In this document: piece after piece, positions 12,240 to 61,400 of the stretch
Position numbering within the stretch: position 1 is the first letter of the stretch
How the letters are laid out: each line of letters begins with the position of its first letter
Assembly: GCA_951406725.2 (NCBI GenBank)
Contig: OX597819.1
Coordinates: 116,560,001 to 116,624,000, forward strand
Source of the DNA: Octopus vulgaris
Taxonomy: Eukaryota
Length of the DNA: 64,000 nucleotides
Direction: 5' to 3'
The notes under the pieces: model-generated
The model's input: only the letters and a program-made list of their open reading frames with translations
Databases searched by the model: none
What the model was told of the DNA's origin: nothing
Position numbers and translations under genes: made by a program

Positions 12240-12642
12240 ATAATGGTTTCAAATTTTGCCACAAGGAAAGCAATTTTGGAGGAGGGGATAATACGATAAC
12301 ATTGACCCTAGTGCTTTACTGGTACTTAATTTATCGACCCCAAACGATGAAACGCAAAGTCGACCTCGGTGAAATCTGAACTCAAAACTTAATGACAGGC
12401 GAAATACCTATTTCTTTACTACCCACAAGGGGCTAAACAAAGAGGGGACAAACAAGGACAGACAAACGGATTAAGTCGATTATATCGAGCGCATTGCGTA
12501 ACTGGTACTTATTTAATCGACCCCGAAAGGGATGAAAGGCCAAGTCGTCCTCGGCGGAATTTGAACTCAGAACGTAACGGCAGACGAAATACGGCTACGT
12601 ATTTCGCCCGGCGTGGTAACAATTCCATCAGGTCGCCGCCTT
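12240..12642 (-). mobile_element. SINE family A dimer
   Basis: Same head, core and tail organisation as 1422-1821; junction GAAATACCTATTTC at 12401-12414. Confidence 0.88.
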
Positions 12643-13456
12643 AAACCGCCATAATAAAAACAACAACAGTAATGTTAACAATGGCACTAGTATATTTCTA
12701 ATCATGGTATATATATAAATCTATGAAATAGTAATTTGTTTCCAAATCTATATCAAAGATTTCAAATATCTTGCAATATCACTTTTTAAATAATTAATGC
12801 AATAATTACTTTACTTAACTAATTAATAATTCAATATATTCCACTAATAATTAATAATTGACTATTTACTTCTCTGCACGACAGTACAGAAGTACAGGAG
12901 CAAATTTGTATCGACAGATAAAAATATACTTTTTACAGTACTACATTTTTGTAGGCAAGATATGAGTGCAGCTTAGTATTCAAGAAGTAAATTATTGAGT
13001 ATTCCATAGTCATTTATTTCAATGTCAGTTGAGAATATGAAAACGTCGTTTAGCATTCACTGTCACATTTCTAACTTCAACTCTCGTAATTACAGATATC
13101 GTGAGAAACAGTATATCACTGCTTCTTTGTTTAAATAAAATTTATCCCCAGTGTATGTTGAAGCTAATTTCGTTTCCTTTGTGAGCTTATAGCTTCCTAT
13201 TTTATAATCGTCAAAAGAAAACAAAAAAAAACGCCATTTTGATATTATAAAACTTTGTGAAATCTCAGTACATGGGGAGGTTTATATGTGTATACGAGGG
13301 TAAATTTAGAAGCGAAAATCAAGTACAAGAGAGTGCTAAAAACCTCCTGGCTTTGGGTAAAAGAAACCACTCTGGTTCCGTCGACTTCGTTGTCGTGTCA
13401 TGTTCCATCAAATTTACTGTCATCGCATCAAGCTACACCACGCTCCATCATCTCAC

Positions 13457-14227
13457 CAGATGTTTTTTATCCGGCTCGGACGATGACTCGGAGAACGAGT
13501 GTTTTCGTACTTCAGAATCAGATGATTCCGATATCGATGATGATATTGTGGTGAATCGAAGGGACAAGCGAGCAGCAGCGAATGGCCCTGGACACCAGAA
13601 TGTCGTGTGGCGAGCGAGAGACAATTTCGAGCGACGGCATGGGTTTACTGGTACGCTTAGCATAAAGACAAACCTTAAACATGGAAGTTCACCATTGGAA
13701 ATCTTCCATGAGTTTCTGACAGATGAAATTTTCCAATATATTGCGGACGAAACGAAAACCTATGCTGAAAACAATCCCCAGCATGTCAAACCGAGCATGA
13801 CAGTGATTGGTCTCCAACTACAGTGAACAATATCAAAATTCTGCTTGCCCTGCTGATACTGATAGGCATCGTAAAGAAACCTATCCTGGTATCATATTGG
13901 AATCGGGATCCAGCTACGTGGACACCTTTCTTTCCGGAAATGATGCCACTTGATTGATCTTTGGCGCTTCTTCCAAATCTACGTTTCAACTCAGGCGAGA
14001 ACTAGGTAACAGGCTGCACAAAATAAGTCCTATTGTTGACGAAGTGGTTGAAAATTTTAGAACGGTGTATGTCTCCACACAGGACATTTATAAGGACAAA
14101 AATTTGTGAAAATTCAAGGGAAGGCTCCGATTCAAACAATACAACCCGACCAGCAGTCCCCGCTTTGGCGTCAAGGTTATATCTGGAATTACAAAATATT
14201 GGATCTTCCTGCATCTACTCTAATGTC
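13457..14227 (+). pseudogene. piggyBac (PGBD4-like) transposase pseudogene, N-terminal half
   Basis: Acidic N-terminus SDDDSENE..SDIDDD, then SPLEIFHEFLTDEIFQYIADETKTYA. After a frameshift: IKILLALLILIGIVKKP..SYW, RLHKISPIVD, KFKGRLRFKQYNP, FGVKV. Stops and frameshifts present; C-terminal part absent. Confidence 0.85.
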
Positions 14228-21554: not shown

Positions 21555-22356
21555 TGTCTCCAACAATAATAACTCTTTGCTAGAGTGGGCCATGGGGCCC
21601 CATATATGACTAAAACACTTCGCCAAGTGGTGCTATTAAGTTAGACATGGCCTGGGCCTATACTAGCCGAAACCTATCTAAGTTATCTAAGTTATCAAAG
21701 TTAACATTCCTTCGCCTAATTAACACCTACTTATTTGAGTTTGTGTACATACGTTCGCGCACAAACACACACACAAACACACATATGTGGACACATACAC
21801 ACACGCATTTAACAAATATAAGAGAATGATGCTTACCGTATAGGAAATAGAATGCAAAATTTACCTTCATAATTTCTTCTTCGGGAACACTATTTCATAT
21901 ACACAGCTCTCTCTCCCTCTCTCTTACTCAATCTGCATCTGTCTGTCTGTCTATCCCTTCTCTCACTCTTTCATTACCTACCTGACTTTGTTAAATATAT
22001 TTGTTAAATGTTATTTCGTCTGCCGTTACGTTCCGAGTTCAAATTCCGCCGAGGTCGACTTTGCTTTTCATCCCTTCGGGGTCGATAAATTAGGTATCAG
22101 TTTCGCACTGGGGTTGATGTATGTGTGTGTGTGTGCGTGTGTGTGCGTGCGTTTGTGCGCGGACGTATGTACATAAAATCAAAAAGGTAGGTATGAGCTA
22201 GACGAAGGAATGTTAACTTTTTTAATAACTTCGATAGGTTTCGGCCAATATAGGCCTAGGCCATGTCTAACTTAATAGCACCACTTGGCGAAGTCTTTTG
22301 GTCATATATGAAGCACCATGGCCCACTCTAGCAAAGAGTTATTATTCTTGGAGACA
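21555..22356. repeat. Diverged inverted repeat (~220-bp arms) enclosing a microsatellite and a SINE A fragment
   Basis: TGTCTCCAACAATAATAACTCTTTGCTAGAGTGGGCCATGG.. (21555-~21775) is the reverse complement of ~22135-22356; the SINE A core lies at 22010-22118. Confidence 0.85.
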
Positions 22357-26730: not shown

Positions 26731-27179
26731 GGTGTGTGTGTTATTCACAGTATGTTGCACCATTGATGTAATATATGAATCAGACCGTGTATTATTTTTA
26801 GATCTTTCTTTTATCGCTTCACATTTCTTCTTTGATGACATTTGCATTCTTTGAAGTATTACGTTTGTTGGAATGCTCCAGCTCAAATACTACAATCACC
26901 CTCACTCTGGCTATGAGCTTAAACATACGGAGTGAACTTTATGCTCATCTGATTATTTCTCATCTATTGTGTTTTCTTTTTACTTGTAGCCTGGATAGCA
27001 ATAATACTACGGTTCCTGTTTCGAAGTGTTTAGTCGATGAACTTCTTTTATGCTTGGTACGTATGTTTAAGGAAATTTTTGCCAAACCGCTAAGATATAA
27101 AGACACAAGCAAACAAACACCGGTTGCCAAACGGCGAAAAGCAAATTCAAAATGAGCACGCGCACACACATTGTTTCTT

Positions 27180-27779
27180 AATTTTTTACTGCCCACAAGG
27201 GGCTACACAGAGAGGGGACAAACTAGGATAGTCAAACGGATTAAGTCGATTCTATCGACCCCAGTGCGTAACTGGTACTTATTTAATCGATCCCGAAAGG
27301 ATGAAAGGCAAAGTCGACCTCGGCAGAATTTGTACTCAGAACGTAGCGGCAGACGAAATACCTATTTCTTTACTACCCACAAGGGGCTAAACACAGAGAG
27401 GGCAAACAAGGACAGACAGACGGATTAAGTCGATTATATCGAACCCAGTGCGTAACTGGTACTTATTTAATCGACCCCAAAAGTATGAAAGGCAGAGTCA
27501 AGCTCGGTGGAATTTGAACTCAGAACGTAGCGGCAGACGAAATACCTATTTCTTTACTACCCACAAGGGGCTAAACACAGAGGGGACAAACAAGGAAAGA
27601 CAAACGGATTAAGTCGATTACATCGACACCAGTGCGCAACTGGTACTTAATTTATCAGCCCCGACAGGATGAGAGGCAAAGATGACCTCCGCGGAAGTTG
27701 AATTCAGAACGTAGCGACAGAAGAAATACGGTTAAGCATTTCGCCCGGCGTGCTAACGTTTCTACCAGCTCGCCGCCTT
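27180..27779 (-). mobile_element. SINE family A trimer (one head + three ~184-bp core/tail-A units)
   Basis: Junction GAAATACCTATTTC at 27355-27368 and 27539-27552; head at 27725-27779. Confidence 0.9.
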
Positions 27780-31015: not shown

Positions 31016-33030
31016 TATGTAAATACATATATATATATGCATATGTGTGTGTAAATATACACACACACACACATATATATATATGTATATATATTTATAT
31101 TATTATATTTATATTTTTATATGATCGAACACCACGCATCCTTTTCCAAGTTTTATCTTAATAATTACGATGCGCACTCTTCTTCTCTACTATCTCTTCT
31201 CTGTCTATATCTCTCCCTCTCTTGTTCTTCATCTTTTCTGGCTTTCTCTCCCACCCTTCCCTATTCTTCTCCTCTCCCCTTCACCGTTCCCTCCCTCTCA
31301 CTCCTTCTTCTCGACTCTTTCGTGGCTGACACGTGATGAGAAGGAATCTATCATTCTGACTACTACGTTCAGAATAATTTTTCAATCGCCTTGGCTTAAC
31401 AACCCTCATCGTTTGTTTTTTATGTTTTGTTCTCATTGTTCTGACTTCTTTTTACGTTTTTATTGTTTTTACTGTTTTGTTCTCACTGTCCTGTTCTTGT
31501 TACCACTTTCAGCCTCCGCAAAAAATCCCAAATTTTATTTAATTTGCTTTGCGGGAAGGACTGTTTCAACGAAGCCGCGTCTTGTCCTTACCTTCGAAAT
31601 GTGGAGTAGTTGAAACAGGGACAACTGAAGAAGGGGAATATTCTTTATCTTGTATGTCTCGTTTCTCTGTTTGTTTGTTTTTCGTTCTCCGAAAAAAATG
31701 CGTTTCTTTTCTTCTTTAGTTTTTATGGTTTCGTTTCTCATTGTGTTCAACGTTCTTTTGGTGACCTGTATCCATATATGTATGTATATATACATATATA
31801 TATATATGTAGGTATGTACATATATGTATGTATATATGCATATATTTATATATTATTTATATTATACATATGCATAACTACCACAGAACAGAATAGAAAA
31901 AGCCAGTGCCTAGGTTAGGATATTAATATGTACGACTCATAACTTTTGGACAGTCAGATCATCTCCTAAACGTTACAGACACAGGGATTTGTAGTTGCGA
32001 ATTACAAACATTGTGCTAGCATTTCAAATGGGCAGCGCAACGCTACAATTGATACATCTTGCAAAATCAGAAACCGTATGGGAGAATTGGCATACCATTC
32101 TCTAACAGGCTAAGTGTTTAGAAAAGTCTTGTGTCTATTGTGTTAGAGTCGCTGCAAGAAATTCTTTGCTTGAAGATTATGGAGCAAAGAGATGCTATGC
32201 CTATTGAAAGCTAGTGTAAGGGAAGTTTTGCTTTAATCTGGGGTGGATTGGATTTAATTCATAATTTAGACTGAATAACAGGAATGAAAGATTGTCTGAA
32301 TGAATTCTTTACGAGATATCTGAAAGATATTGTAGTCATTTTCCATTTTCTTCATAAAAGTTCTGACAGCAAAACAGGAGCCAGTAAAACCTACCAGAAC
32401 TATGTTTCTTACAATTCGATATCATCAAGGAAGCGTTTCAAAGTAGCCTAATTAACCTAACAGACTTTGCCAACAATTTATATTTTGTTCCAAAAGGAAG
32501 TTCAGTAGATTGATACGGCATTTCTCAGAGTATTAATGAAAGCATTATACTGAAAGGTGATGACGTCAATGAATATAGTGTGATAGGCCAGATGGAATTT
32601 GTGTCACTACGTGATGAATTAGTTTCCTATTTTGCTGATATTAATGAATTTTATCATCAACTCATGCAAACAACTATTAGAATTAATCTTACCTAAGGTA
32701 CAGACAATATTCAAAATACGTTTGTGGTACATATAAATGACTTTAGAGACTAATTCTTCTTCTGGAAATCTTCACTAATAAAATCCAGTGATCTAGAGTC
32801 ATATGTTTCTAATCTTTGTCTAAAACTTTGCTTGGTAATTTGGTTTGTTGTTGTTAAATAGTTTACAAAATAACGAAGTTTTTTATCTGGGACACGAATA
32901 AACAAAACAAAATTTCTGCTAATCTGGCAACAGGGAATCATGAAGTGTTTTGGGAGTAGATTACAGATAATGACTACAAAAATATAATTGTTTTACATGA
33001 AAGCGAAATTTCTTGTCAGAAACAACCACG

Positions 33031-34253
33031 TAATGGTGTAAGGAAATTGAAGGAAGATGTTGAAACTTCCCCACTGCTCAACAGCAAAGGGAGTTATTTT
33101 TCTCTGAGAGAAAAGCTAACAAAGCTCCTTTATTCTATCTTCCCACATATCGTGCACATAAACTAACAGCGAATGCTGCATAAAGTTAAATTGGTATGGA
33201 GCTTCCTGAAAGATACGTATAGCTTTCGCTAGTTGAAGTGAAACCCTTATTTAAAGGTTGATTTTTTGGGACGAATTTGAGTGTTTAAAAAGGGCTAGAA
33301 TGACAATTCTAAAACCTATTTGAAACAATGGACAGCAGTTAAAGAAGCCTCCTTAAAGTGAAACAACGGTATCAAAGGTAAAAAAAGGTATCAACAATCA
33401 GAAGAGAGGGAAGGGAACATCGCCTTTCAAGTAACTCAGAATAGGTAAAGGTAAGCTTGCCAAAGTTTAATGCAGTTTCGATAGGTAGATTAAGATAGTT
33501 TGGTATTGGATATTCGCACGTATAGTTTTCCTAGTTAACTGAATCACCGTCGTAAGTGGACAGTAGAAATAAATAGACTAAATCCTTTCACTTTTATAAG
33601 AAGATTAAAAAGAAAACAGGGCAAAAAGCATTCACGTCACACATAATGGTGTAAGGAAATTGAAGGAAGATGTTGAAACTTCCCCACTGCTCAACAGCAA
33701 AGGGAGTTATTTTTCTCGGAGAGAAAAGCTAACAAAGCTCCTTTATTCTATCTTCCCACATATCGTGCACATAAACTAACAGCGAATGCTGCATAAAGTT
33801 AAATTGGTATGGAGCTTCCTGAAAGATACGTATAGCTTTCGCTAGTTGAAGTGAAACCCTTATTTAAAGGTTGATTTTTTGGGACGAATCATATGTGAGT
33901 GTTTAAAAAGGGCTAGAATGACAATTCTAAAACCTATTTGAAACAATGGACAGCAGTTAAAGAAGCCTCCTTAAAGTGAAACAACGGTATCAAAGGTAAA
34001 AAAAGGTATCAACAATCAGAAGAGAGGGAAGGGAACATCGCCTTTCAAGTAACTCAGAATAGGTAAAGGTAAGCTTGCCAAAGTTTAATGCAGTTTCGAT
34101 AGGTAGATTAAGATAGTTTGGTATTGGATATTCATCACGTATAGTTTTCCTAGTTAACTGAATCACCGTCGTAAGTGGACAGTAGAAATAAATAGACTAA
34201 ATCCTTTCACTTTTATAAGAAGATTAAAAAGAAAACGAGGGCAAAAAGCATTC
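33031..34253. repeat. ~605-bp tandem duplication (33031-33633 and 33644-34253)
   Basis: Two near-identical copies, differing at about four sites (mostly indels), separated by 10 nt. Confidence 0.93.
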
Positions 34254-38829: not shown

Positions 38830-40030
38830 ATTGCTTAGCTTTGATACCATTGTGTTCTCAAAATCCAGGAGCACATCTTGCGGGTCAAGTCAATGTTGTT
38901 GTTTACGTGGGGTCTCCAGCTTAGATTGTTATCAACAATTACTCCAAGGCCTCTGGTGTTGATGGATGGCACTAGGGAGTTACCCAAGGGGAGCGAATAT
39001 AGTAGTTTCAGAGTATCCAATTAAACTTATCTTCATTTAGAAGCATATTGTTCTCTTCCGCCCAATGGACAACAGCAAACAGATCAGATTGAAGGCATGT
39101 TCGGTCTTCTATACGGTTTCTGGCCTACTGGTGCTTGGAACCATCGGCAAAGATTTTCGATGTACAGTGTTTGATATAGATAATGAAGAAGAGTTGGTCC
39201 AACACAGTACCTTGCGGGACACCACTACTGACTTGGGCTGAACCTAATGGGATTACTTCAACCGCAACATGTTGGGTTCTATTCGTCAGTAGCTTTCCAC
39301 GGACTCCAATGTTGGACACTTTCTTCGGCAGGATTTTGTGGTTCACTCTGTCAAATGCCTTGCTGAAATCAAGACATATGACATGACTCTTGGAGCCTTC
39401 TCTCACAACTTTTAAGTTGTCCCCAAAATGGTGCAGAAGCTGCGACAGGCAGTGCCTGCCATCACAGAAACTATTCTTTCGCTCTCGAGTACGTTAATGA
39501 TATGAGAGGTGAGTGAAATCGTACTGTAGTTCGCTGCAAGAAATATGTTTCTCATTTTGAAAATTAGAACGACAGACTGGGAAAGAAATGATCAAGTGAG
39601 CTCCTCCAGATCTCATCTAGAGGTGTCGACACATCTTTAGGACAGTTTCCAGGAACCTCTCGGGACCTGCATCTGAGTTGTGCTTGATCTTTTTTAGTTC
39701 TGTTAGGATATCAGGAGCACCAAAACGTATATCAGATATAGTTAGTTGAGGGCTTACATCACTGATAGTAGCCAGATCAACCGCATTAGGGTTACTGAAA
39801 ACAGAACAGAATTGTTTCTGCTGCATCCCGCGCATGAATGTTGCATCATCATGTAGAGTGTTGTTCTCATCAACCAGAGAACCAAGTGTGAAACAGCGAC
39901 TTAATGATTTTTTGCAAATGAAAAGAACACCCTGGGGTTGTTTTATCTTCTCAACGGCCCATTTCTCTTCGTCTGTTCTGGTTGTTAACGATGGTCATTA
40001 TGAGTTTTTTTAGAGGTCTTGTTTTTTGAT
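38830..40030 (-). mobile_element. Decayed CR1-group LINE RT region
   Basis: LDFSKAFDRVNHKIL, SGVPQGTVL..LFFIIYI, IFADGSK (FADD), RGLGVIVDNNLSWRPHV; many disruptions. Confidence 0.85.
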
Positions 40031-46589: not shown

Positions 46590-48447
46590 CATAAATATTT
46601 TCATATATATCCCTTTTCCTCAGAGAAGAACGAATAAAGGGAGGAAAGAAGTAAAAGACGCACATACGCATGCTCACACTCACATGTATATATTACCTAT
46701 ATGTGTGTGCGTGTGTGTGTGTATGAGATTGAATAATAAACATACTTTAGGGTACTTCAAAGATGTTTGTAATATATTTTAACCAGTAATAGCAATTAGA
46801 TTGCAATTTACCGTGGGGGATATTAATAAGCTCTTACTGTACCATATGGTAAAAGGTTCAAATGAACAACTATCAGCTCAATGGCGCCCTCTATAGGGAC
46901 ACTAAATGCATTTCTATTTCATTACGTCATCTTCAGTTGCGGTTACCTAAGAGAGGCAACTCTACGCTCACAGAAAACCTTAGCTTTATGATTAATCATT
47001 CAGTACTTGCGCTCTTAGACTGCCCGGTTTCATCACATACATAAGCGATATTTGAATTCCAGTCTTTGTATTTAGTTAATTCACGCTATAGTAAATTCGT
47101 TGTACTGACTCGCTGCTTAATGACATTTTATGTGCTTTCTCTGCGTAAATGCATGCATAATATGAACAAAATTTTCGCTTGTGTATTTTGCTATACAAAA
47201 GCATAAATAGTATGTCTTACCTTTCATAAAATTTGGTCACCAAATTCTCGTTTTGGTCTCACGCTCTCGGTTTGTTTATTGCCTTGTGTTTACAAGCTTG
47301 TGTACCATTTACAACAAACTGTTTCAATATCACATATATACTGAGTTTGGACATATCCAATAATATTTTAAATATGTGAGAACCTTGATATCAAACGAAA
47401 TTTTTTAAAACCATAAATGTTATCCTGCAAGAAAAGCCTAACTCTAGATGCCCATAACTAAAACTTCTCTTTGCAAACCAATGGTGAAGTGCGTCGATTA
47501 CAGTAGGTTTACCTCCTAAATATAGATAGTAGAATTGACATTATATAGAGCATATATAGATTATATAATGCTTAATGAATCAGACAATAATGGGAATGAC
47601 GCTGCTGAAATAGACTTTGAAGCTATGATTTTGTATTTCAGATCTTCGGTGGTTAGACAACTTTAACTAACTGTAAATAACCTAACGCTATTATATAGTA
47701 CAGTCGCTTGCTATCAAGCTTCTATCTAACCTATTGACTTGATATGTCTATGCTGCCCAGAACAGCTGTATCAAAATATGGTGCAAAAGTTTAATACAGA
47801 ATTGAAACGAATTTTACTACTTTGATGAATTAGCAGAACATTTTTAAAGTGTAGATAACTTTGAAGTCAGGTATTCTGTGTCTTTCATAATATTTCCAAA
47901 ATTATTGATGGTTTACGTGAACATAATTGTCATCACATCACATCGTTAATATTGGTTATCAGACAATATTTGAACATTGAATATTGATGTACATCGATAA
48001 TGCACAAGGCCAATTACTGCAAGAAAGATGTATATATCTGACTGGTATATTGACAGCATTTTATTATCTCCAAATCCGAATTTACAAAACATAAAGAAAA
48101 ACATATGTAATTATCTCCTGACTTGATCGTTTCCACAAAATATAACGTGACATTTTAATTAGATACTGGCGATTGTATCGTATTTGTAAAAAAATACTTA
48201 CTTTTCATATGTAAACTTACTTCAACATTTAGCAACATTTTTCAAATAGCTAGCGATAGAAGAGGCCAATTTTGATAATTTCTCCACACAAACTCAATGT
48301 AGCTGTTGCTGTTAGACTGCCAAGTGTAAATTTTTAACACCCCGGGTGAGTTATTTACTGCATACTCATTAATCAGAACATTTCTACAAATAAAGTTTCC
48401 TTGACGAAATATAAAACTATATTCAGATACGGTTGTTTCAATACATA

Positions 48448-49296
48448 CGAGGGGCGTTCAATAAGTAATGCCCATAACCCACTTCCTATAGCAGTAGAGC
48501 AACGAAACTTGGCACAGTTATTAGTCTTTTTCTACATAGGAACCACCCAGAGTTACGCATTTCTCCCATCGTTTGATGCAGCTCTGGAGACCGTTTTTGT
48601 AGAAGACTCCAGCTTGGTCCTCCAACCACGACGTGACTTCAGAAATCAAGGCTGCATCATCTGGGAGACGCTTTTGAAAAAGTTTGACTCATCTTCTTGG
48701 CACATCTCCAAATTCATCCTCGAGCACTCGACGCGTTCTTGCTTCTGGAAAGGTGTGAGTAGCCTGGGAATCCATCTGGGAGACACCTTTTGTACATGCA
48801 AATGGTCATGAATGATAGTTTCCACAGACCCGGTACTAATCTTGACCTCATGGGCTATTTGACGAATAGTTATGCGTCGACCTTCCAAAATCGCAGCCTC
48901 AACTTGACGGACAGATACCTCATCAATGGCAGAAGGGGGGGCGACCAGATCTGGGAGCTGTTTCCACAGAGTTTCGACCATGTTTGAATTCACAATGCCA
49001 GCGTTTTACAAGGTCATATGATGGGGCATCATCACCATAAGTTACTTTCATTTCATCAAAAGTCTCCCGTGGTGTGCGTTCTTTCAAATACAAAAACCGG
49101 ATCACTGCTCGACACTCAACAGGCTCCATTTCACACTTGACTCAGTCCAAACACATGTAAATCAGGAACCACAATTAGTGCAGAGCTGTAACTTGCCACT
49201 TAATTTATAGAGATAAAACTAATTGCACATGCAAAATTACATCAAGATCAAACTACTGCAAGTGGGTCAGGGGCATTACTTATTGAACGTCCCTCA
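48448..49296 (-). mobile_element. Internally deleted mariner (Tc1/mariner) transposon
   Basis: 26-bp TIRs CGAGGGGCGTTCAATAAGTAATGCCC (48448-48473) and 49271-49296 (24/26 match), flanked by TA on both sides. Confidence 0.93.
48521..49129 (-). pseudogene. mariner transposase pseudogene (HTH region fused to the C-terminus, catalytic DDD core deleted)
   Basis: MEPVECRAVIRFL..RSGRP, a frameshift, then WIPRLLT (WVPHEL motif), jumping directly to DDAALISEVTSWL..FYKNGLQSCIKRWEKCVTLGGSYVEKD*. Confidence 0.9.
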
Positions 49297-49698: not shown

Positions 49699-50958
49699 CT
49701 AAAATCGAAATATTTAGTTGATATTGGATTTGTTAATCGAATTAAAGATCATACTTCCATAAAACTCGACACACAATCCTGCCTATGGCATGATGACATG
49801 CTAGAACATCGGTTTGAAAATTACCGAACCCATGCCGGGATTCGTGACAGCATCCAATGTCTCTCGCCTCCCTCGAGCCAATTTTCTGAATGTTGAGGGA
49901 GGTACGATCGATTTTAATTAGACCCAACAACTACGTAGCTTTTCAATCATCTAACAAACAAAAAGTAAAAAATAGCGTAATATTTAGAGAAAATCTCAGA
50001 TAATATTCTACAAAACATAAGATTATTGTTTATGCATAAGCAATGATTTAAAACTAAGATATAATTATTTTTGATGAATTGCTATATAATATAATTACTA
50101 ATAATGAACTGCAATTTATCTTCATGTTATCCATCTCACATCAGCATAATTATTTTCTTTCAAGTTTGACAGAGATGATATGGAACAGAAGATTCCATAA
50201 CAAGCCATATAAATAATTTCCACCCCATCATAAACTTAAAGATAAACCCATTAACTGTTGATATTTTATTTTGTCATGCAACATAATTATATTCCCTAAT
50301 TAACATTTCACTCTCAATAGGTATTGATCAAAATCTAATATATCTCGTGTCACGCGAGTAATCAGAAATCTGCTGTTACGGGTTTAATATTAGTCCAATG
50401 TAATACAGTTACTTATTCACAATTTTAAAACAATTATCTACGTATGTTACTATCTAATGGGATATAGAGATACAGACAGAAAAATCTGCTAAAATGTTCG
50501 CGTCTGTTTCCTTGATGATATATGATACGATATATGATAAGATACGGCGCATAAGCATTATAGTCCCGATAAAACAACGAGTCAGTAATTATATGAAAAT
50601 ATGTGTGTGTATGTATGCATTATGTATGTATATGTATGTACGTATGTGTATGTTTGTGTGATTTGATTATATTTCCGAAATAAACGTATTTGGGTATATC
50701 TATATATCATATATTTCATCGCACTATGCCTGTTAATTTTCAATTTTACTTAAGCATCTTGCTAAGAGTTGGACACAAAATTATTTTCGATATAATTACA
50801 AAAAATATATATTTGCTTAATTGAAAGAAGTGCTAACATTCAATATCTTATCATCTCGGTAACACATGTCTCATTTATACATAATTATGTGTGCTCTGTA
50901 TATATTTGTGAATATGTACTTATTTATATGTGGACATGTATATTGTCTATATTAATAA

Positions 50959-51214
50959 TTATCGCCAAGATAACATGGCAGTCCGGAAAAATAGGACGAA
51001 TGCTGCCGTTGATTAGCTCCAAGAGGCCATCGCCTCTAGCTAGCTATGTGACACACAAACCTGTGTCCATTATAACCTTCGAACAGGTGAGGTCAGCAGC
51101 TTCCCCTTGCTGTTCTGGCATCCACAGACTAGTTTCGAGGTGTTTGCCTCTTATCAATGTGGAGTACCCAGACCCAGCAGGCGTCGCTGTTGACCGACTG
51201 TTCGAAGGATTATT
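50959..51214 (-). mobile_element. Small non-coding, highly structured insertion carrying a hammerhead ribozyme (retrozyme-like)
   Basis: GC-rich island flanked by a ~20-bp TSD: TATATTGTCTATATTAATAA (50939-50958) and TATATTGTCTATACTTATAA (51215-51234); multiple hairpins. Confidence 0.7.
51114..51172 (-). ncRNA. Type I hammerhead ribozyme with U3:A8 core variant
   Basis: Minus strand: TCTGG-GTAC-TCCACA-TTGATAA-GAGG-CAAACA-CCTC-GAAAC-TA-GTC^TGTGGA-TG-CCAGA; predicted cleavage between + coordinates 51127 and 51126. Confidence 0.85.
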
Positions 51215-51499
51215 TATATTGTCTATACTTATAACACTAATTAAACTTATACATTTTTCAACCAGTTTTAGTCCAAGGTCGAGCCTAAATTAATGAGACC
51301 ACCAGGGAGTTTTTTACGTCTTGATTAGGTTATATTTTGTGTCACTACACATTCTTCAAATGGGGATTTGCTGTTAGTCTAAACTATCCAAGTATAGGTG
51401 TTTGTTTGGAATACATTAGAGATATTTATACAGGAACTGTTTGAAAGCTTTGAGATATTTTAAGATATTTTTACTTCGTTCATGTGTTTCAGAATAAAT

Positions 51500-52000
51500 G
51501 TTAAATGTAGCTGGTCAAGCTAGGCGAAAAATAAATGTGTTGTAACATTTTTTGCACTGTATGGCTGATTTGTTTAAGGGGACTGCGGTACGTGTTCCAA
51601 TCTTGGATGATTGTGAGTCATGATGATCATATCATTTGGGCTACGCTGTTTATATTTTCCACATTGTGCAGATGATGCAGCGCTTACGACATCGCTTGAG
51701 GGAATCATGTGTCTGTCTTTGATGTGTTCTCAATTATCAAAGAATGGTATGCTATAGTTATAACATCATGATAGACGAGATGCCTAAATAATAATGATTT
51801 TTCTTCTAGTTTGGTAAGTAATCAGGGCACCATACTCCATGTGTAACAATACAAAGGACGACAAGAAAATGATAATGCAATTTGACTCCGTGAAATTAAA
51901 TTTCTGAGTATCCACGTATTCATTCAGCGCACCACCCTAACATATTGAGTACCCAAACTGATCGTGTGTCATCAACAATTACTCCTTGATCTCTGATAAA
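51500..52000 (-). pseudogene. Ancient CR1-like LINE ORF2 C-terminal remnant
   Basis: The minus-strand translation SLKRCRKRCIICTMWKI resembles the SLxRRRERYxIIYxWKI motif of LINE C-termini; heavily decayed. Confidence 0.4.
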
Positions 52001-53209
52001 GATAGATGCTTCTGGGGGAAGAATAGCGTGTCCATTTAAGCACATCTTTCTCCCCAAAATGGAGGATTTTCCTGGGGTGAAAAGCACTTGGATAAACTAC
52101 TATATTCCTGACAATATTTCACTAAATGCGACGCCAGCTTTCGCATACATTGCTGTTCGAGCAGAAGCGTAGATTTCGGAAGCCTATCTCAAAATATTGC
52201 GCAGTGTTGCTTCCAAAAATCTATAACAGTACTACAATCAATAAAATCTACGTTGACCCACGCACTTGTCTCATATTTTTTGTATATCGCTTATTAAAAA
52301 AAATTAATCGGAATATTTTTACATGAAAAATCTTAGAGATAGCAAACTCATCTTGTTTATAATGCAGTATTCCTCTTTTCACTACAACAGAGTCTTGAGA
52401 ATCCTTCGTCTCGAATAGTTCAGATAGTTTATGTATGTAACAAAACATTTTCTATATAACTTTATAATGTTTATTATTATTCACGTTTGATATGCATTAA
52501 CATACTTTTTGCCGAATTCATTCCATTTGGAGTTACCATAGTTTTTTCATTATGCACTCTTATTTTCATTTGGAAAGTGTGATGTTTAATGTTATTCTAT
52601 TCTCTCTGGAAATTTAAACTTCAATATCTTTTATGAACAACTTCAATCTGTTAAGAACAACTTGGAGAACAGGATATTTTACAGTTATATTTGGGCTTCT
52701 TTTAATAAACAGGTTGTTATCCAACGGCCGTCTACGGGTGCTTTTCAACAACAAACATTTAAATATTACAAATGAAAATAATCTGAGCTGTTTATTTATA
52801 TTAGCATTATTCCATTTAAATTTGTGTTCATTTATGAACACAAATACTTTTATTTTTGGTTGGAACATTACTTCACAAGAGTGCTTGAAATAAAGAAAAC
52901 AATATTAAGTGTACAATTATAAAATTAACTTATACAAATTAGCTCTTCTTTTAATTATATGAATACATTTTTTGCAATTATATCGAAGATAATTTTGTGT
53001 CCGACACTTAGTAAGATGCTTCAGTGAAATTGAAAATTAACAGGCAGAGTGCGATGATACAAATGATACATAAATATATTTACGTACGTTCAATACGGAA
53101 ACCACTTCAAAATATAATCAAATCACACAAACATACACACACATACATATAAATACATAGTGCTTGCATTCACACGCGCACGCACGCACACACACAGACA
53201 CACACAAGT

Positions 53210-58402: not shown

Positions 58403-58408
<6 letters not shown>

Positions 58409-61400
58409 TAGACGAAACAATAACACCAATTATAAACAACATAAACCTAGCCGTCACGGAACTAATAGCCACTGAAACAAAAAGTGATATCACTGAGATA
58501 AATGACTTAATATACGCAGCAACCACTGCAGCCACAAAAGAAGCTGGAAACTCACTCAAACCCATCCAAACAGGAGTACCACCACTCAAACAAACCCTGT
58601 GGATAAATAACATCCAAAACAAAATACAAAAAATGAGAAAAGATCTGTCGATTCTTAATGAAATCAGCAAACAATCAACGCAACTGAGCAACAAAAAGAA
58701 AACAAAAATACTCCGCAAATATAACATCACAGAAAAAGATTTACCTGAGATAAAAGAAAAGCTGAAGCAAGATATCCTTGCCAAAGCACAAAGGATCCGC
58801 CGGTACGAGAAACGCTAGCGCTTCTTTGAACAAAACAAAAAGTTCAACTCCAACCCCAAAAAGTTCTACCAAGAACTTGGCAAAAATAGAATAGAAGTCA
58901 CTGCAGCACCAACGGCAGAATAATTGGAAGAATTCTAGAGAGAAATATGGTCGGCGAACGAACAACCAAAAAAAAAGGAGTATCAAAATAACAAACTCGG
59001 CATCCGAACAACTTTGGACCCCCATAATAACTGAAGAGGTTACCCAGGCACTGCAAAGACTAAGCAACTGGAAGGCACCTGGGCATGACAAGATCCCCAA
59101 CTTCTGATGGAAATATCTAACAGGAATGCACAAATAGCTGGCTGAAAACTTTAACAACATACTAGCAGAGCCAGAGACAATGCCTGAATGGCTCACGAAG
59201 GGGAAAACCATATTAATTCCCAAATCAAACGAGACAGCAAAACCAGAAAACTACAGACCAATAACCTGCCTCCTTACAATGTTCAAGACATTTACTGCAG
59301 TGATATCGCAAAGATTGAACAAGCACCTGGACGAAAACAAACTGTTCCCAGAAGAGCAGAAAGGATGCCGCAAAGGCTCATATGGCTGTAAAGATCAACT
59401 AATGATTAATAAAGCCATAACTGAAGACAGCCACAGAAAGAAGAAATGCCTCAGTATGGCCTGGATTGACTACAAAAAGGCGTTTGATAGCATCCCCCAC
59501 ACATGGATCCTCGAAACACTAGCCATTAACAAAGTAGCACCAACAATCATAAAATTCATAGAGCACTCTATGAATAAATGGCAAACAGTCCTACACCTCC
59601 AAACAAAAGAGGGACTCATGAAAACCAAAGACATCCCCATTAGAAGAGGAATATTTCAGGGAGACACGCTCTCTCCACTCCTTTTCTGCTTGGCACTGTC
59701 ACCTCTATCTGATATACTAAATAGAACTGGATGCGAATATAAATGTTACGGCAAAACGATCAGCCACCTTTTATATATGGATGACCTAAAACTATACGCT
59801 GCAAATGACAAACAGCTGGAAACACTATTAAAGATAGTTCATGGATTTACCAAAGAAATAGATATGAAATTTGGATTAGAAAAATGTGTCAAAGTAACCA
59901 TGAAAAGAGGAAAACTAGTTAAGAGTAGCAACATCACACTAGATAAAACCAATGAAATAAAAGAATTAGACCAAAGCCAAACTTACAAATACTTAGGAAT
60001 CCATGAACTAGATAAGACACAACACACACAAATGAAAGAGAAAATAAAAACGAATATTATAGACGAGTTAGATCAATACTAAAAACAGAGCTCAATGCTA
60101 AAAACAAGATAATAGGTATTAACACTTTAGCTGTCCCAGTTATAAGTTACAGCTACAATATCCTTAACTGGACACGAAATGAACTGAGCAAAATAGATAG
60201 GAAAACAAGAAAAATAATGACAGGATCTAGGATGCATCACCCAAAATCTGACATAGAAAGACTATATATACAACGTATAGAAGGTGGTAGAGGCCTTATA
60301 CAACTGGAAAACTACTATAAAATAACCACCATAGGACTGCAAAAATATCTACTTCAGAAGGAAGGAAAACTGATACAAATAGCGGCAAAACACGAGCAAA
60401 ACAAAAAACTGTTCTCAGTATTTAAGGAAGCTGACAAATACAAACAAGAAATCATACCACCTAATAAATATGAAGAAGAAGAAGAAGAAGAAGAAGATGA
60501 AGAAACAACAAAATCTATAAAACAAATGAAATCCGAACTAAAAATAGAACAGCAACGAACCATGATAAAACGATGGCAAGAAAAGCCCCTTCATGGTAAA
60601 TACTGGACTAAACTAAACGCAAAAGAAATAGACAAAGAAAAATCCCAGCAATGGTTGAGAAGCTCAGGACTCAAAGCAGAAACAGAGGGATTTTTAATTG
60701 CAGCACAAGACCAAAGCCTCCCCACCAGAAATTACCAAAAACATATAATGAAAAGAAATATAACAAGTAACTGCAGAATATGTGGAGATGGACAAGAAAC
60801 AATAAATCATATTATCTCTAGCTGCCCAATCCTGGCTAAGAAGAAATATATTCACAGACATGACAGAGTTGGAACCTACATACATTGGAAGCTATGCCAA
60901 CATTATGGAATAACAACAGAAAAAAGATGGTATAGGCACACACCAGAAAAGGTCACAGAAAACGAGAAAGCAACCATACTCTAGGATATGCCGATACACA
61001 CAGATAGAGAAATTAAGGCCAACAGGCCAGATATAGTTGTCAGAGATCATGAAGAAAAAAAATGTTTTCTAATTGATGTATCAATACCGGCAAATGACAA
61101 CGTGTCTCTAAAAGAAATGGAGAAACTCTCAAAATACAATGACCTGGAAATAGAGGTAACTAGAATGTGGAATCTGAAAACAGAAACAATTCCTATCATA
61201 GTAGGTGCATTAGGCACGATAAAAAAATATTCAGTCAAATACATAACAAAAACACCAGGACTTACAAACACTTATATCATACAGAAAATTGCACTTCTAG
61301 GCACTGCACACATCCTACGCAGAACACTTTCCATACAATAACCATCAGAGCATCACAACAAATCACAACACATACCTTAGGCACACAGAGCTGCGCTCGG

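What the first reader, a model, noticed from the sequence alone, without database searches (positions are those of the whole stretch)
50939..51234. TSD-flanked, rod-folding ~256-bp element with a complete hammerhead ribozyme (U3:A8 variant): candidate cephalopod retrozyme-like mobile RNA
Seen in sequence: the minus strand at 51163-51121 reads UCCACA-UUGAUAA-GAGG-CAAACA-CCUC-GAAAC-UA-GUC-UGUGGA. That gives a 6-bp helix I, a 4-bp helix II with G10.1:C11.1, a palindromic helix III (ACUAGU) and a GUC cleavage triplet. The core departs from CUGAUGA only at positions 3 and 8 (U3, A8), which keeps the tertiary 3:8 Watson-Crick pair, so the change looks compensatory rather than random decay. Helix I continues through a GUAC/UG internal loop into TCTGG/CCAGA, CTTGCTG/CAGCAGG, GGTCAGCAGC/GCTGTTGACC and CCTTCGAACAG/CTGTTCGAAGG (51076-51208), a ~130-nt rod with the ribozyme at its tip. 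The rest of the element (50959-51070) is further hairpins. The unit is bracketed by an 18/20 direct repeat and has no ORF or tRNA head. Established knowledge: a GUAC bulge with a CAAAUA-type loop II is the tertiary contact of Schistosoma-type hammerheads. Short palindromic helix III allows dimeric cleavage in PLE/retrozyme hammerheads, which make circRNAs from tandem copies. Inference: this is a solo retrotransposed monomer of a non-autonomous ribozyme-bearing RNA family, possibly with a circular intermediate.
Basis: partly seen in the sequence, partly recalled or inferred. Interest (0 to 1): 0.85.

Follow-up and report, generated by a model that had tools for sequence, protein, structure and literature searches.

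The report
Hammerhead repeat family, U3:A8 core
A short non-coding insertion carries what is very probably a real self-cutting hammerhead RNA and belongs to an abundant repeat family shared by several related animals; such ribozyme repeats and this core variant are already known from other animals, and neither cutting nor RNA circles have been shown here.

Summary
The hammerhead is real. It is the only descriptor hit in the 64 kb, and 0 of 40 shuffles gave one as strong. Two copies fold into the dimeric form through the palindromic helix III. Rfam misses it.

Public runs show a very abundant dispersed family. Five coded organisms hold its words. 3,621 and 1,918 contigs were laid from two DNA runs, and 268 raw RNA reads. 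Helix II changes compensatorily, and U3:A8 is shared across copies.

The family continues past both ends, so this is a truncated solo copy, not a whole monomer. No empty site, tandem array, circle junction or cleavage end was seen. The cephalopod host is unverified.

The architecture is the canonical metazoan type I hammerhead of non-LTR retrozymes (PMC7229834). U3:A8 is documented in phages and Schistosoma Penelope-like elements (PMC3088659, PMC4209133). Best reading (0.6): a retroposed fragment of a retrozyme-type family, probably mobilised by Penelope-like elements. Rival (0.25): a Penelope pseudo-LTR fragment. New member of a known kind; interest 0.38.

The parts
50939..50951 (+). left copy of the 13-bp perfect direct repeat (probable target-site duplication; its last 2-3 letters overlap family sequence)
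   Evidence: 13/13 identical, mismatch at letter 14; table 7 (family aligns from 50949/50950)
50949..51216 (-). inserted piece of a high-copy repeat family, GC 0.48 against 0.28 and 0.34 in the flanks; truncated at both ends relative to the family
   Evidence: GC; tables 1, 2, 7; X2 records 9 and 16 span the left and right junctions
50950..51075 (-). part 3' of the ribozyme in ribozyme sense: a run of short hairpins; most of it (from 50990) is the most deeply covered part of the family
   Evidence: z -2.3 minus, -3.7 plus; table 2
51076..51208 (-). 133-nt rod that extends helix I, with the ribozyme at its tip
   Evidence: -63.8 kcal/mol, z -6.1; outer-rod covariation not established
51121..51163 (-). 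type I hammerhead ribozyme, canonical metazoan architecture, U3:A8 core pair; predicted cut between 51127 (C17) and 51126
   Evidence: activity not tested
51128..51133 (-). palindromic helix III (ACUAGU); forms a 6-bp intermolecular helix in a predicted dimer
   Evidence: cofold -38.6 kcal/mol against 2 x -16.5
51137..51150 (-). helix II and loop II; pair 10.2:11.2 changes from A:U to G:C in many copies, and loop II is mostly CAAAUA in the family
51164..51167 (-). loop 1, 5' side (GUAC), opposite UG at 51120-51119; putative contact with loop II, variable in the family
   Evidence: table 3; likeness to the Schistosoma contact is recalled, not tested
51215..51227 (+). right copy of the 13-bp direct repeat

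Best explanation
The insert is a solo, end-truncated, moderately aged copy of an abundant non-autonomous repeat family of the non-LTR retrozyme type. Shown: the hammerhead fold, high copy number, compensatory change in helix II, a shared U3:A8 core, a 13-bp flanking duplication, and low-level RNA of the family. Inferred from known retrozymes: master copies lie in tandem; two neighbouring hammerheads pair through the palindromic helix III and cut after GUC; the released unit (longer than the ~263 bp here) can be ligated into a circle; and the reverse transcriptase/endonuclease of an autonomous element, most likely Penelope-like, copies part of it into AT-rich DNA. This solo copy has one hammerhead only, so it cannot release a monomer and should cut poorly without a partner.
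For: Only descriptor hit in 64 kb, 0 of 40 shuffles as strong. Helix I 6 bp, helix II 4 bp and a short palindromic helix III are the 'canonical' metazoan form, distinct from the minimal form of most animal Penelope-like elements (PMC4209133). The dimer is the predicted minimum for two copies. 3,621 contigs of X2 and 1,918 of X9 lie on the stretch; X2 depth is 1.6e4-8.7e5 inside against 48-80 in most flank bins. The two sides of pair 10.2:11.2 change at matching rates in all 4 runs: 0.78/0.89, 0.50/0.48, 0.69/0.72, 0.66/0.56. 0 of the 40 variant rows shown fall on core positions. X23 loose-end consensuses (30 and 13 reads) keep U3 and A8 while helices I and II change in pairs. All 6 A>G places counted for X2 and all 6 for X15 are matched by other shown rows, so U3 to C3 seems below 5% there (my reading, tables 1 and 3). 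Copies ending at 50948 against TA or CA runs (19 X2 contigs, 1 X15) and three single-contig 'goes back' joints fit Penelope-type targeting and partial tandems. Solo monomers and TSDs longer than 4 bp are described for retrozymes.
Against: No tandem unit in the window. Several longer contigs appear to run 350-900 letters past the element without a listed return (records 10, 12, 14, 22; 12 joints not shown). The three 'goes back' joints have different breakpoints and unknown letters between. No circle junction and no pile-up of molecule ends in raw RNA (tables 5, 6). RNA is scarce, about 21 reads per million, with first mates about equal on both strands, unlike the abundant circles of coral and mussel. 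The helix I changes at 51123/51161 do not match in the three contig runs (0.35/0.07, 0.90/0.34, 0.87/0.29). 6 of 16 variants at paired rod positions break a pair. A8 is not confirmed in X2: 2 of 5 T>C places are not shown, and 55 variant rows were hidden. In Xenopus only 1 of 9 predicted dimers cleaved in vitro.
Confidence: 0.6

Rival explanations
1. The insert is a fragment of the pseudo-LTR of a Penelope-like element (autonomous or a deletion derivative). The hammerhead processes the element's tandem precursor, and most genomic copies are truncated single ends.
For: The family continues on both sides (table 7). Copies look dispersed and variably truncated, and some end at TA runs. U3:A8 was found in about 1,300 mostly single motifs related to Cercyon Penelope-like elements. 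24 of 57 Xenopus retrozyme families match known elements, nearly all Penelope-like, at their ends. One X9 contig has telomere-like repeats at a joint (table 5c).
Against: The helix sizes and the lack of an extra base between 9 and 10.1 are those of canonical, not minimal Penelope-type, hammerheads. No Penelope ORF was found in the window: 153 frames scanned gave only non-LTR RT, mariner-type HTH and piggyBac-type DDE hits plus one weak Rpb5 match. This rival and the best explanation overlap, since retrozymes are proposed to derive from pseudo-LTRs.
Confidence: 0.25
2. A SINE-like linear retroposon whose hammerhead is now vestigial or only trims the 5' end. Copies spread by target-primed reverse transcription from the 50950 side, and there is no circular stage.
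For: Depth over 50990-51117 is roughly 10-50 times that over the ribozyme in both DNA runs, as 5' truncation would give. RNA is low and shows no clear strand bias. G10.1:U11.1 wobbles occur in 11-66% of depth.
Against: Loose ends show that many reads and contigs continue into a diverged but intact hammerhead, so part of the depth drop is the 80% likeness cut-off. Paired changes in helix II argue for past selection on the fold. No tRNA head and no A or B box by my patterns.
Confidence: 0.12
3. A chance hammerhead-like string inside an ordinary hairpin-rich repeat.
For: No Rfam hammerhead match; the plus strand folds at least as well.
Against: 0 of 40 shuffles give such a hit; core constant and helix II changing in pairs across two organisms.
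Confidence: 0.03

Closest known systems
Metazoan non-LTR retrozymes (Cervera & de la Pena 2020, PMC7229834; parts 2 and 3 of 6, Discussion and search passages read; supplement too large to read)
   Same: Canonical type I hammerhead in a short, protein-free, self-paired repeat under 50% GC; TSD longer than 4 bp; thousands of copies; weak palindromic helix III as in axolotl HHR_Amex1; known from a mollusc (Mytilus).
   Different: Core is U3:A8; tandem arrays and circles are not shown here; this copy is truncated; RNA of the family is scarce in the one raw run laid; the main text has no mention of octopus or cephalopods.
U3-A8 minimal hammerheads of Cercyon Penelope-like elements of Schistosoma mansoni (Cervera & de la Pena 2014, PMC4209133; parts 1-2 of 4 and part 1 of 3 of the supplement read)
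   Same: The same core covariation fixed in a large family (about 1,300 motifs), mostly single copies; dimer-type helix III.
   Different: The S. mansoni minimal motifs have a longer helix II, a shorter helix I, an extra unpaired base and lie in pseudo-LTRs; this one has canonical helix sizes and no linked ORF was seen.
Natural U3-A8 core variants (Perreault et al. 2011, PMC3088659; section 8 and search passages read)
   Same: C3:G8 covaries to U3:A8, stated there to be active in vitro.
   Different: Described for scattered examples, not as a trait of an animal repeat family; the activity data are in a cited paper that is not held.
Retrozyme monomers derived from Penelope pseudo-LTRs (Li, Clavereau & Pollet 2026, bioRxiv 10.64898/2026.07.22.740005; parts 1-3 of 5 read)
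   Same: Solo copies dispersed along chromosomes; proposed mobilisation by Penelope-like elements.
   Different: No mollusc was sampled; their definition of an active element needs two consecutive units with complete hammerheads, which this locus lacks; bioRxiv supplements are closed.
Newt satellite 2, Schistosoma and Dolichopoda pDo500 satellite hammerheads (PMC2837043, passages read; newt and schistosome as summarised in PMC4209133 and PMC7229834)
   Same: Type I hammerhead within a repeat, with compensatory stem changes among copies.
   Different: In pDo500 C3 and G8 are nearly invariant, and those repeats are satellite arrays.

Membership tests
Type I hammerhead ribozyme | core 3-9, G12-A13-A14, A15.1:U16.1, NUH site, with a Watson-Crick 3:8 pair | tested here: met
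   U3:A8 accepted as a natural covariation
Type I hammerhead ribozyme | helices I and II form; helix I is the open stem | tested here: met
   pair probabilities 0.80-1.0; paired change at 10.2:11.2 in 4 of 4 runs
Type I hammerhead ribozyme | self-cleavage after C17 | not testable with these tools
   needs in vitro transcription; no molecule ends piled up in X23, which fragmented libraries would hide
Rfam hammerhead families | covariance-model score at the gathering threshold | tested here: not met
   no hammerhead match at E up to 10 in 3,001 or 161 bases, none at gathering in the window
Non-LTR retrozymes | canonical type I hammerhead (helix I 6 bp, helix II 4 bp, short palindromic helix III) | tested here: met
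Non-LTR retrozymes | short (150-450 bp), protein-free, GC under 50%, no LTR/PBS/PPT | tested here: met
   263 bp held, GC 0.48, longest Met frame 72 codons within a frame without Pfam hit, no tRNA; full unit length unknown; PBS/PPT not searched separately
Non-LTR retrozymes | head-to-tail tandem copies with two or more hammerheads | tested here: inconclusive
   not met at this locus; for the family only three single-contig 'goes back' joints, with 12 joints not shown
Non-LTR retrozymes | many genomic copies | tested here: met
   3,621 and 1,918 contigs laid; five coded organisms
Non-LTR retrozymes | target-site duplication longer than 4 bp | tested here: inconclusive
   13-bp perfect repeat, but no empty site seen
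Non-LTR retrozymes | expressed as abundant linear and circular unit-length RNA | tested here: inconclusive
   268 of 12.9 million reads in X23, no circle junction; library selection unknown
Penelope-like element pseudo-LTR | linked to an RT / GIY-YIG ORF | tested here: inconclusive
   none found in the window; the family's extensions could not be followed (no genome)
Penelope-like element pseudo-LTR | minimal hammerhead form (long helix II, short helix I, extra base between 9 and 10.1) | tested here: not met
   canonical forms do occur in some non-animal Penelope-like elements
tRNA-derived SINE | tRNA-like head with A and B boxes | tested here: not met
   (box patterns recalled); only the part of the family held in the window was tested

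The most novel reading that the evidence does not exclude
A lineage-wide, thousands-of-copies retrozyme family (cephalopod, if the host guess holds) that has fixed U3:A8 in an otherwise canonical hammerhead, and so escapes Rfam and CUGANGA-based scans. It would make viroid-sized rod-like RNA circles, and some copies would have become able to cut as monomers through a 5-nt duplication that lengthens helix III (seen in 30 and 10 raw RNA reads). That would imply a hidden class of variant-core retrozymes in animals. In a host with heavy A-to-I editing it would also offer a ribozyme that editing of A8 could switch off; this last step is speculation with no support here.
Probability: 0.25. Interest if true: 0.6.

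Novelty: new member of a known kind. Interest (0 to 1): 0.38.

Why it matters
It adds a very abundant hammerhead-bearing repeat family from a lineage for which my searches found no report. It also shows that Rfam can miss a whole family after a two-base core swap, so counts of animal hammerheads are lower bounds. With many natural copies, the family offers a test of how the 3:8 pair, the 10.1:11.1 pair and helix III length trade off in cleavage. It does not establish a new mechanism.

Tried and rejected
No whole genome is held, so copies, arrays and empty sites could not be counted directly. Rfam found no hammerhead. BLASTN of the element against the window found no second copy, and a motif from the family's left extension had 0 matches in the window at up to 2 mismatches. 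Pattern scans found 0 matches in metagenome contigs, viral contigs and prokaryote genomes. Empty site: no joint skipping the element among the 15 shown (12 hidden); organism E's run gave no continuous flank coverage. Host identification failed: the neighbouring RT's best hit has 56% identity and no cephalopod name appears among 120 hits; earlier scan notes had no look-alikes. RNA editing: X23 shows A>G at 9 and T>C at 9 places against G>A 21 and C>T 15, so no excess. A DNA-transposon (MITE) reading was rejected because the 11-bp inverted stem (51076-51086/51198-51208) is internal, not terminal. Literature: searches joining hammerhead, ribozyme or retrozyme with octopus, squid or cephalopod (top 20-30 rows each) listed no paper that describes a cephalopod hammerhead; the Octopus vulgaris repeat paper PMC13282606 has 0 occurrences of 'hammerhead' or 'ribozyme' (passages). 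Subscription journals, Repbase/Dfam, the PMC7229834 supplement and bioRxiv supplements were not seen and could hold the family.

Full report
The observation. The minus strand at 51163-51121 reads as described. Helix I has 6 bp, the core is U3-U4-G5-A6-U7-A8-A9 (51157-51151), helix II has 4 bp closed by G10.1:C11.1, then come G12-A13-A14, the palindrome ACUAGU and C17 at 51127. All ten pairs of helices I and II have probabilities of 0.80-1.0 in the unconstrained ensemble. A descriptor that accepts six 3:8 combinations found only this site on both strands of the 64 kb; shuffles gave 0.2 hits of any kind each, and 0 of 40 gave one as strong. The rod 51076-51208 folds at z -6.1 on the ribozyme strand and -8.6 on the other, so folding does not choose the strand. 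Rfam gave no hammerhead match at E up to 10 and nothing at gathering thresholds in the window.

Helix III. A 2-bp helix III would need a 2-nt loop, and even the single A15.1:U16.1 pair raises the energy from -13.0 to -7.4 kcal/mol. Two copies fold together at -38.6 kcal/mol, against 2 x -16.5, with intermolecular helices I and a 6-bp palindromic helix III. This is the dimeric form described for canonical metazoan hammerheads (PMC4209133) and for axolotl HHR_Amex1, which cleaved 6% as a monomer and far better as a dimer (PMC7229834). It is a prediction; no cleavage was measured.

The family. No genome is held, so I used public runs. Twenty of 24 listed rows, from 13 studies and five coded organisms, hold words of the stretch. 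I laid four runs on 50670-51600 at 80% likeness. X2 (organism A, DNA by the tool's guess) gave 3,621 contigs, X9 (organism E) 1,918, X15 (A, RNA by guess) 166, and X23 (E, raw RNA) 268 reads. X2 depth is 48-80 in most flank bins, 5e5-8.7e5 over 50990-51085 and 1.6e4-4.3e4 over the ribozyme. The tool warns that this is no copy number; thousands of copies is my inference. X2 records 9 (50670-51009, 1 difference) and 16 (51152-51600, 6 differences) span both junctions, so organism A carries this filled locus. No joint skips the element among the 15 shown, so there is no empty site in hand.

Boundaries. The perfect direct repeat is 13 bp (50939-50951 and 51215-51227); 8 of 3,000 random 40-mer pairs at this spacing reach 13. 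Loose ends show a conserved continuation before 50949/50950 in all four runs (21 reads; 36+21, 17+22 and 4 contigs) and after 51216 in X2 (17 contigs). The window therefore holds a piece cut out of a longer unit, whose length I could not determine. Other copies end at 50948 against TA or CA runs (19 X2 contigs at 0.6 agreement, 1 X15 contig).

Selection on the fold. Of the 40 variant rows shown (55 hidden), none falls on a core position. I tested the 25 that lie in the rod: 9 are unpaired, 4 keep a wobble, 6 form three double changes and 6 break a pair. Pair 10.2:11.2 changes from A:U to G:C with matching rates on both sides in all four runs (0.78/0.89, 0.50/0.48, 0.69/0.72, 0.66/0.56). The helix I pair 51161:51123 matches in raw reads (0.73/0.87) but not in the contig runs (0.07/0.35, 0.34/0.90, 0.29/0.87). 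Loop II is CAAAUA in 55-95% of depth. C11.1 becomes U in 11-66%. Loop 1 is not constant. U3 and A8 are both kept in two X23 loose-end consensuses (30 and 13 reads, agreement 0.98 and 0.95) that differ elsewhere by paired changes in helices I and II. In X2 and X15 every counted A>G place is matched by another shown row, so reversion of U3 seems below 5%. A8 could not be checked that way in X2. U3:A8 is thus a family trait in two organisms. No C3:G8 copy was seen, so covariation of this pair within the family is not shown.

RNA. X23 holds about 21 family reads per million, with first mates nearly equal on both strands over most of the element. The bins 51150-51213 lean to one side (19 against 7, 11 against 1), but on few reads, and the library's strandedness is unknown. 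No circle junction and no common start or end was listed. This fits read-through from many dispersed copies. It does not exclude circles that a poly-A library would lose. In 30 and 10 reads the five letters at helix III are duplicated, which by my reading would allow a 4-bp intramolecular helix III; this may be a single locus.

Tandem arrangement. The window has no second copy. Three single X2 contigs go back from 51111, 51136 and 51154 to near the left end, with unknown letters between. One of them (317 letters) leaves at most 75 letters for the gap, too few for a full unit with both extensions. These may be partial tandems. Several longer contigs appear to leave the element without returning. 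Tandem arrays are neither shown nor excluded.

Context and host. The window is AT-rich animal-like DNA crowded with microsatellites and transposon remains: a non-LTR RT at 59138-60984, an RT fragment near 39125-39493, a mariner-type HTH at 48926-49141 and a piggyBac-type DDE fragment near 13769-13954. No host exon or Penelope ORF was recognised among the 153 frames scanned. The repeats look like those of octopus to me, but that is recalled; one search did not confirm it.

Mechanism. Shown: fold, abundance, paired change, flanking duplication, family RNA. Inferred from PMC7229834 and bioRxiv 10.64898/2026.07.22.740005: tandem masters, dimer cleavage, ligation to a circle, and copying by a Penelope-like RT into AT-rich targets. 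I give this 0.6, a Penelope pseudo-LTR fragment 0.25, a linear SINE-like element with a vestigial ribozyme 0.12 and chance 0.03. The first two are close, since retrozymes are proposed to arise from pseudo-LTRs. Only 1 of 9 predicted Xenopus dimers cleaved in that preprint, so activity should not be assumed.

Novelty. Hammerhead repeats of this build are known from cnidarians, mussels, arthropods and amphibians. U3:A8 is a natural variant reported active in vitro (PMC3088659) and found in about 1,300 Schistosoma motifs. What I did not find in print is a cephalopod family, or a canonical retrozyme-type family with U3:A8 fixed (searches; PMC7151607, PMC8557442, PMC10886601 and PMC13282606 seen as passages only). 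Repeat databases and two sets of supplements were not seen. It works like a non-LTR retrozyme; membership is open because tandem copies and circles are untested. Verdict: new member of a known kind, interest 0.38.

Noticed in passing
window 51128-51132, run X23 (loose ends behind 51110 and 51132): 30 and 10 RNA reads carry a 5-nt duplication at helix III that could form a 4-bp intramolecular stem, i.e. a hammerhead able to fold as a monomer; their loop II is one base shorter.
   Followed up: partly
window 51026-51091, run X9 (table 5c): One contig has 16 letters of telomere-like TTAGGG repeats between two parts of the element.
   Followed up: no
window 51216, run X2 (table 7): The family's continuation beyond the right end holds a further 7-bp hairpin with a 5-nt loop.
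   Followed up: no
window 27179-27729, 12240-12642, 1420-1820, 3-189, 22012-22121: A dispersed ~184-bp repeat family that occurs as short head-to-tail runs (3, about 2.2 and about 2.2 units) and single pieces, 80-90% alike; no hammerhead by my scan. It resembles an octopus SINE from recall only.
   Followed up: partly
window 58405-61341 (+): Broken non-LTR retrotransposon in several frames: RT (PF00078), zf-RVT and a C-terminal frame that looks like a restriction-like endonuclease (recalled motif); best relatives about 56% identical.
   Followed up: partly
window 33027-33633 and 33640-34253: A ~610-bp tandem duplication at 98% identity; may be recent or an assembly artefact.
   Followed up: no
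window 50605-50836 and 52939-53175: The left flank of the element is part of another repeat, with an inverted 79%-identical copy 2.3 kb away.
   Followed up: no
window 48350-49207 and 13251-14001: Remains of a mariner-type (PF17906) and a piggyBac-type (PF13843) transposase.
   Followed up: no
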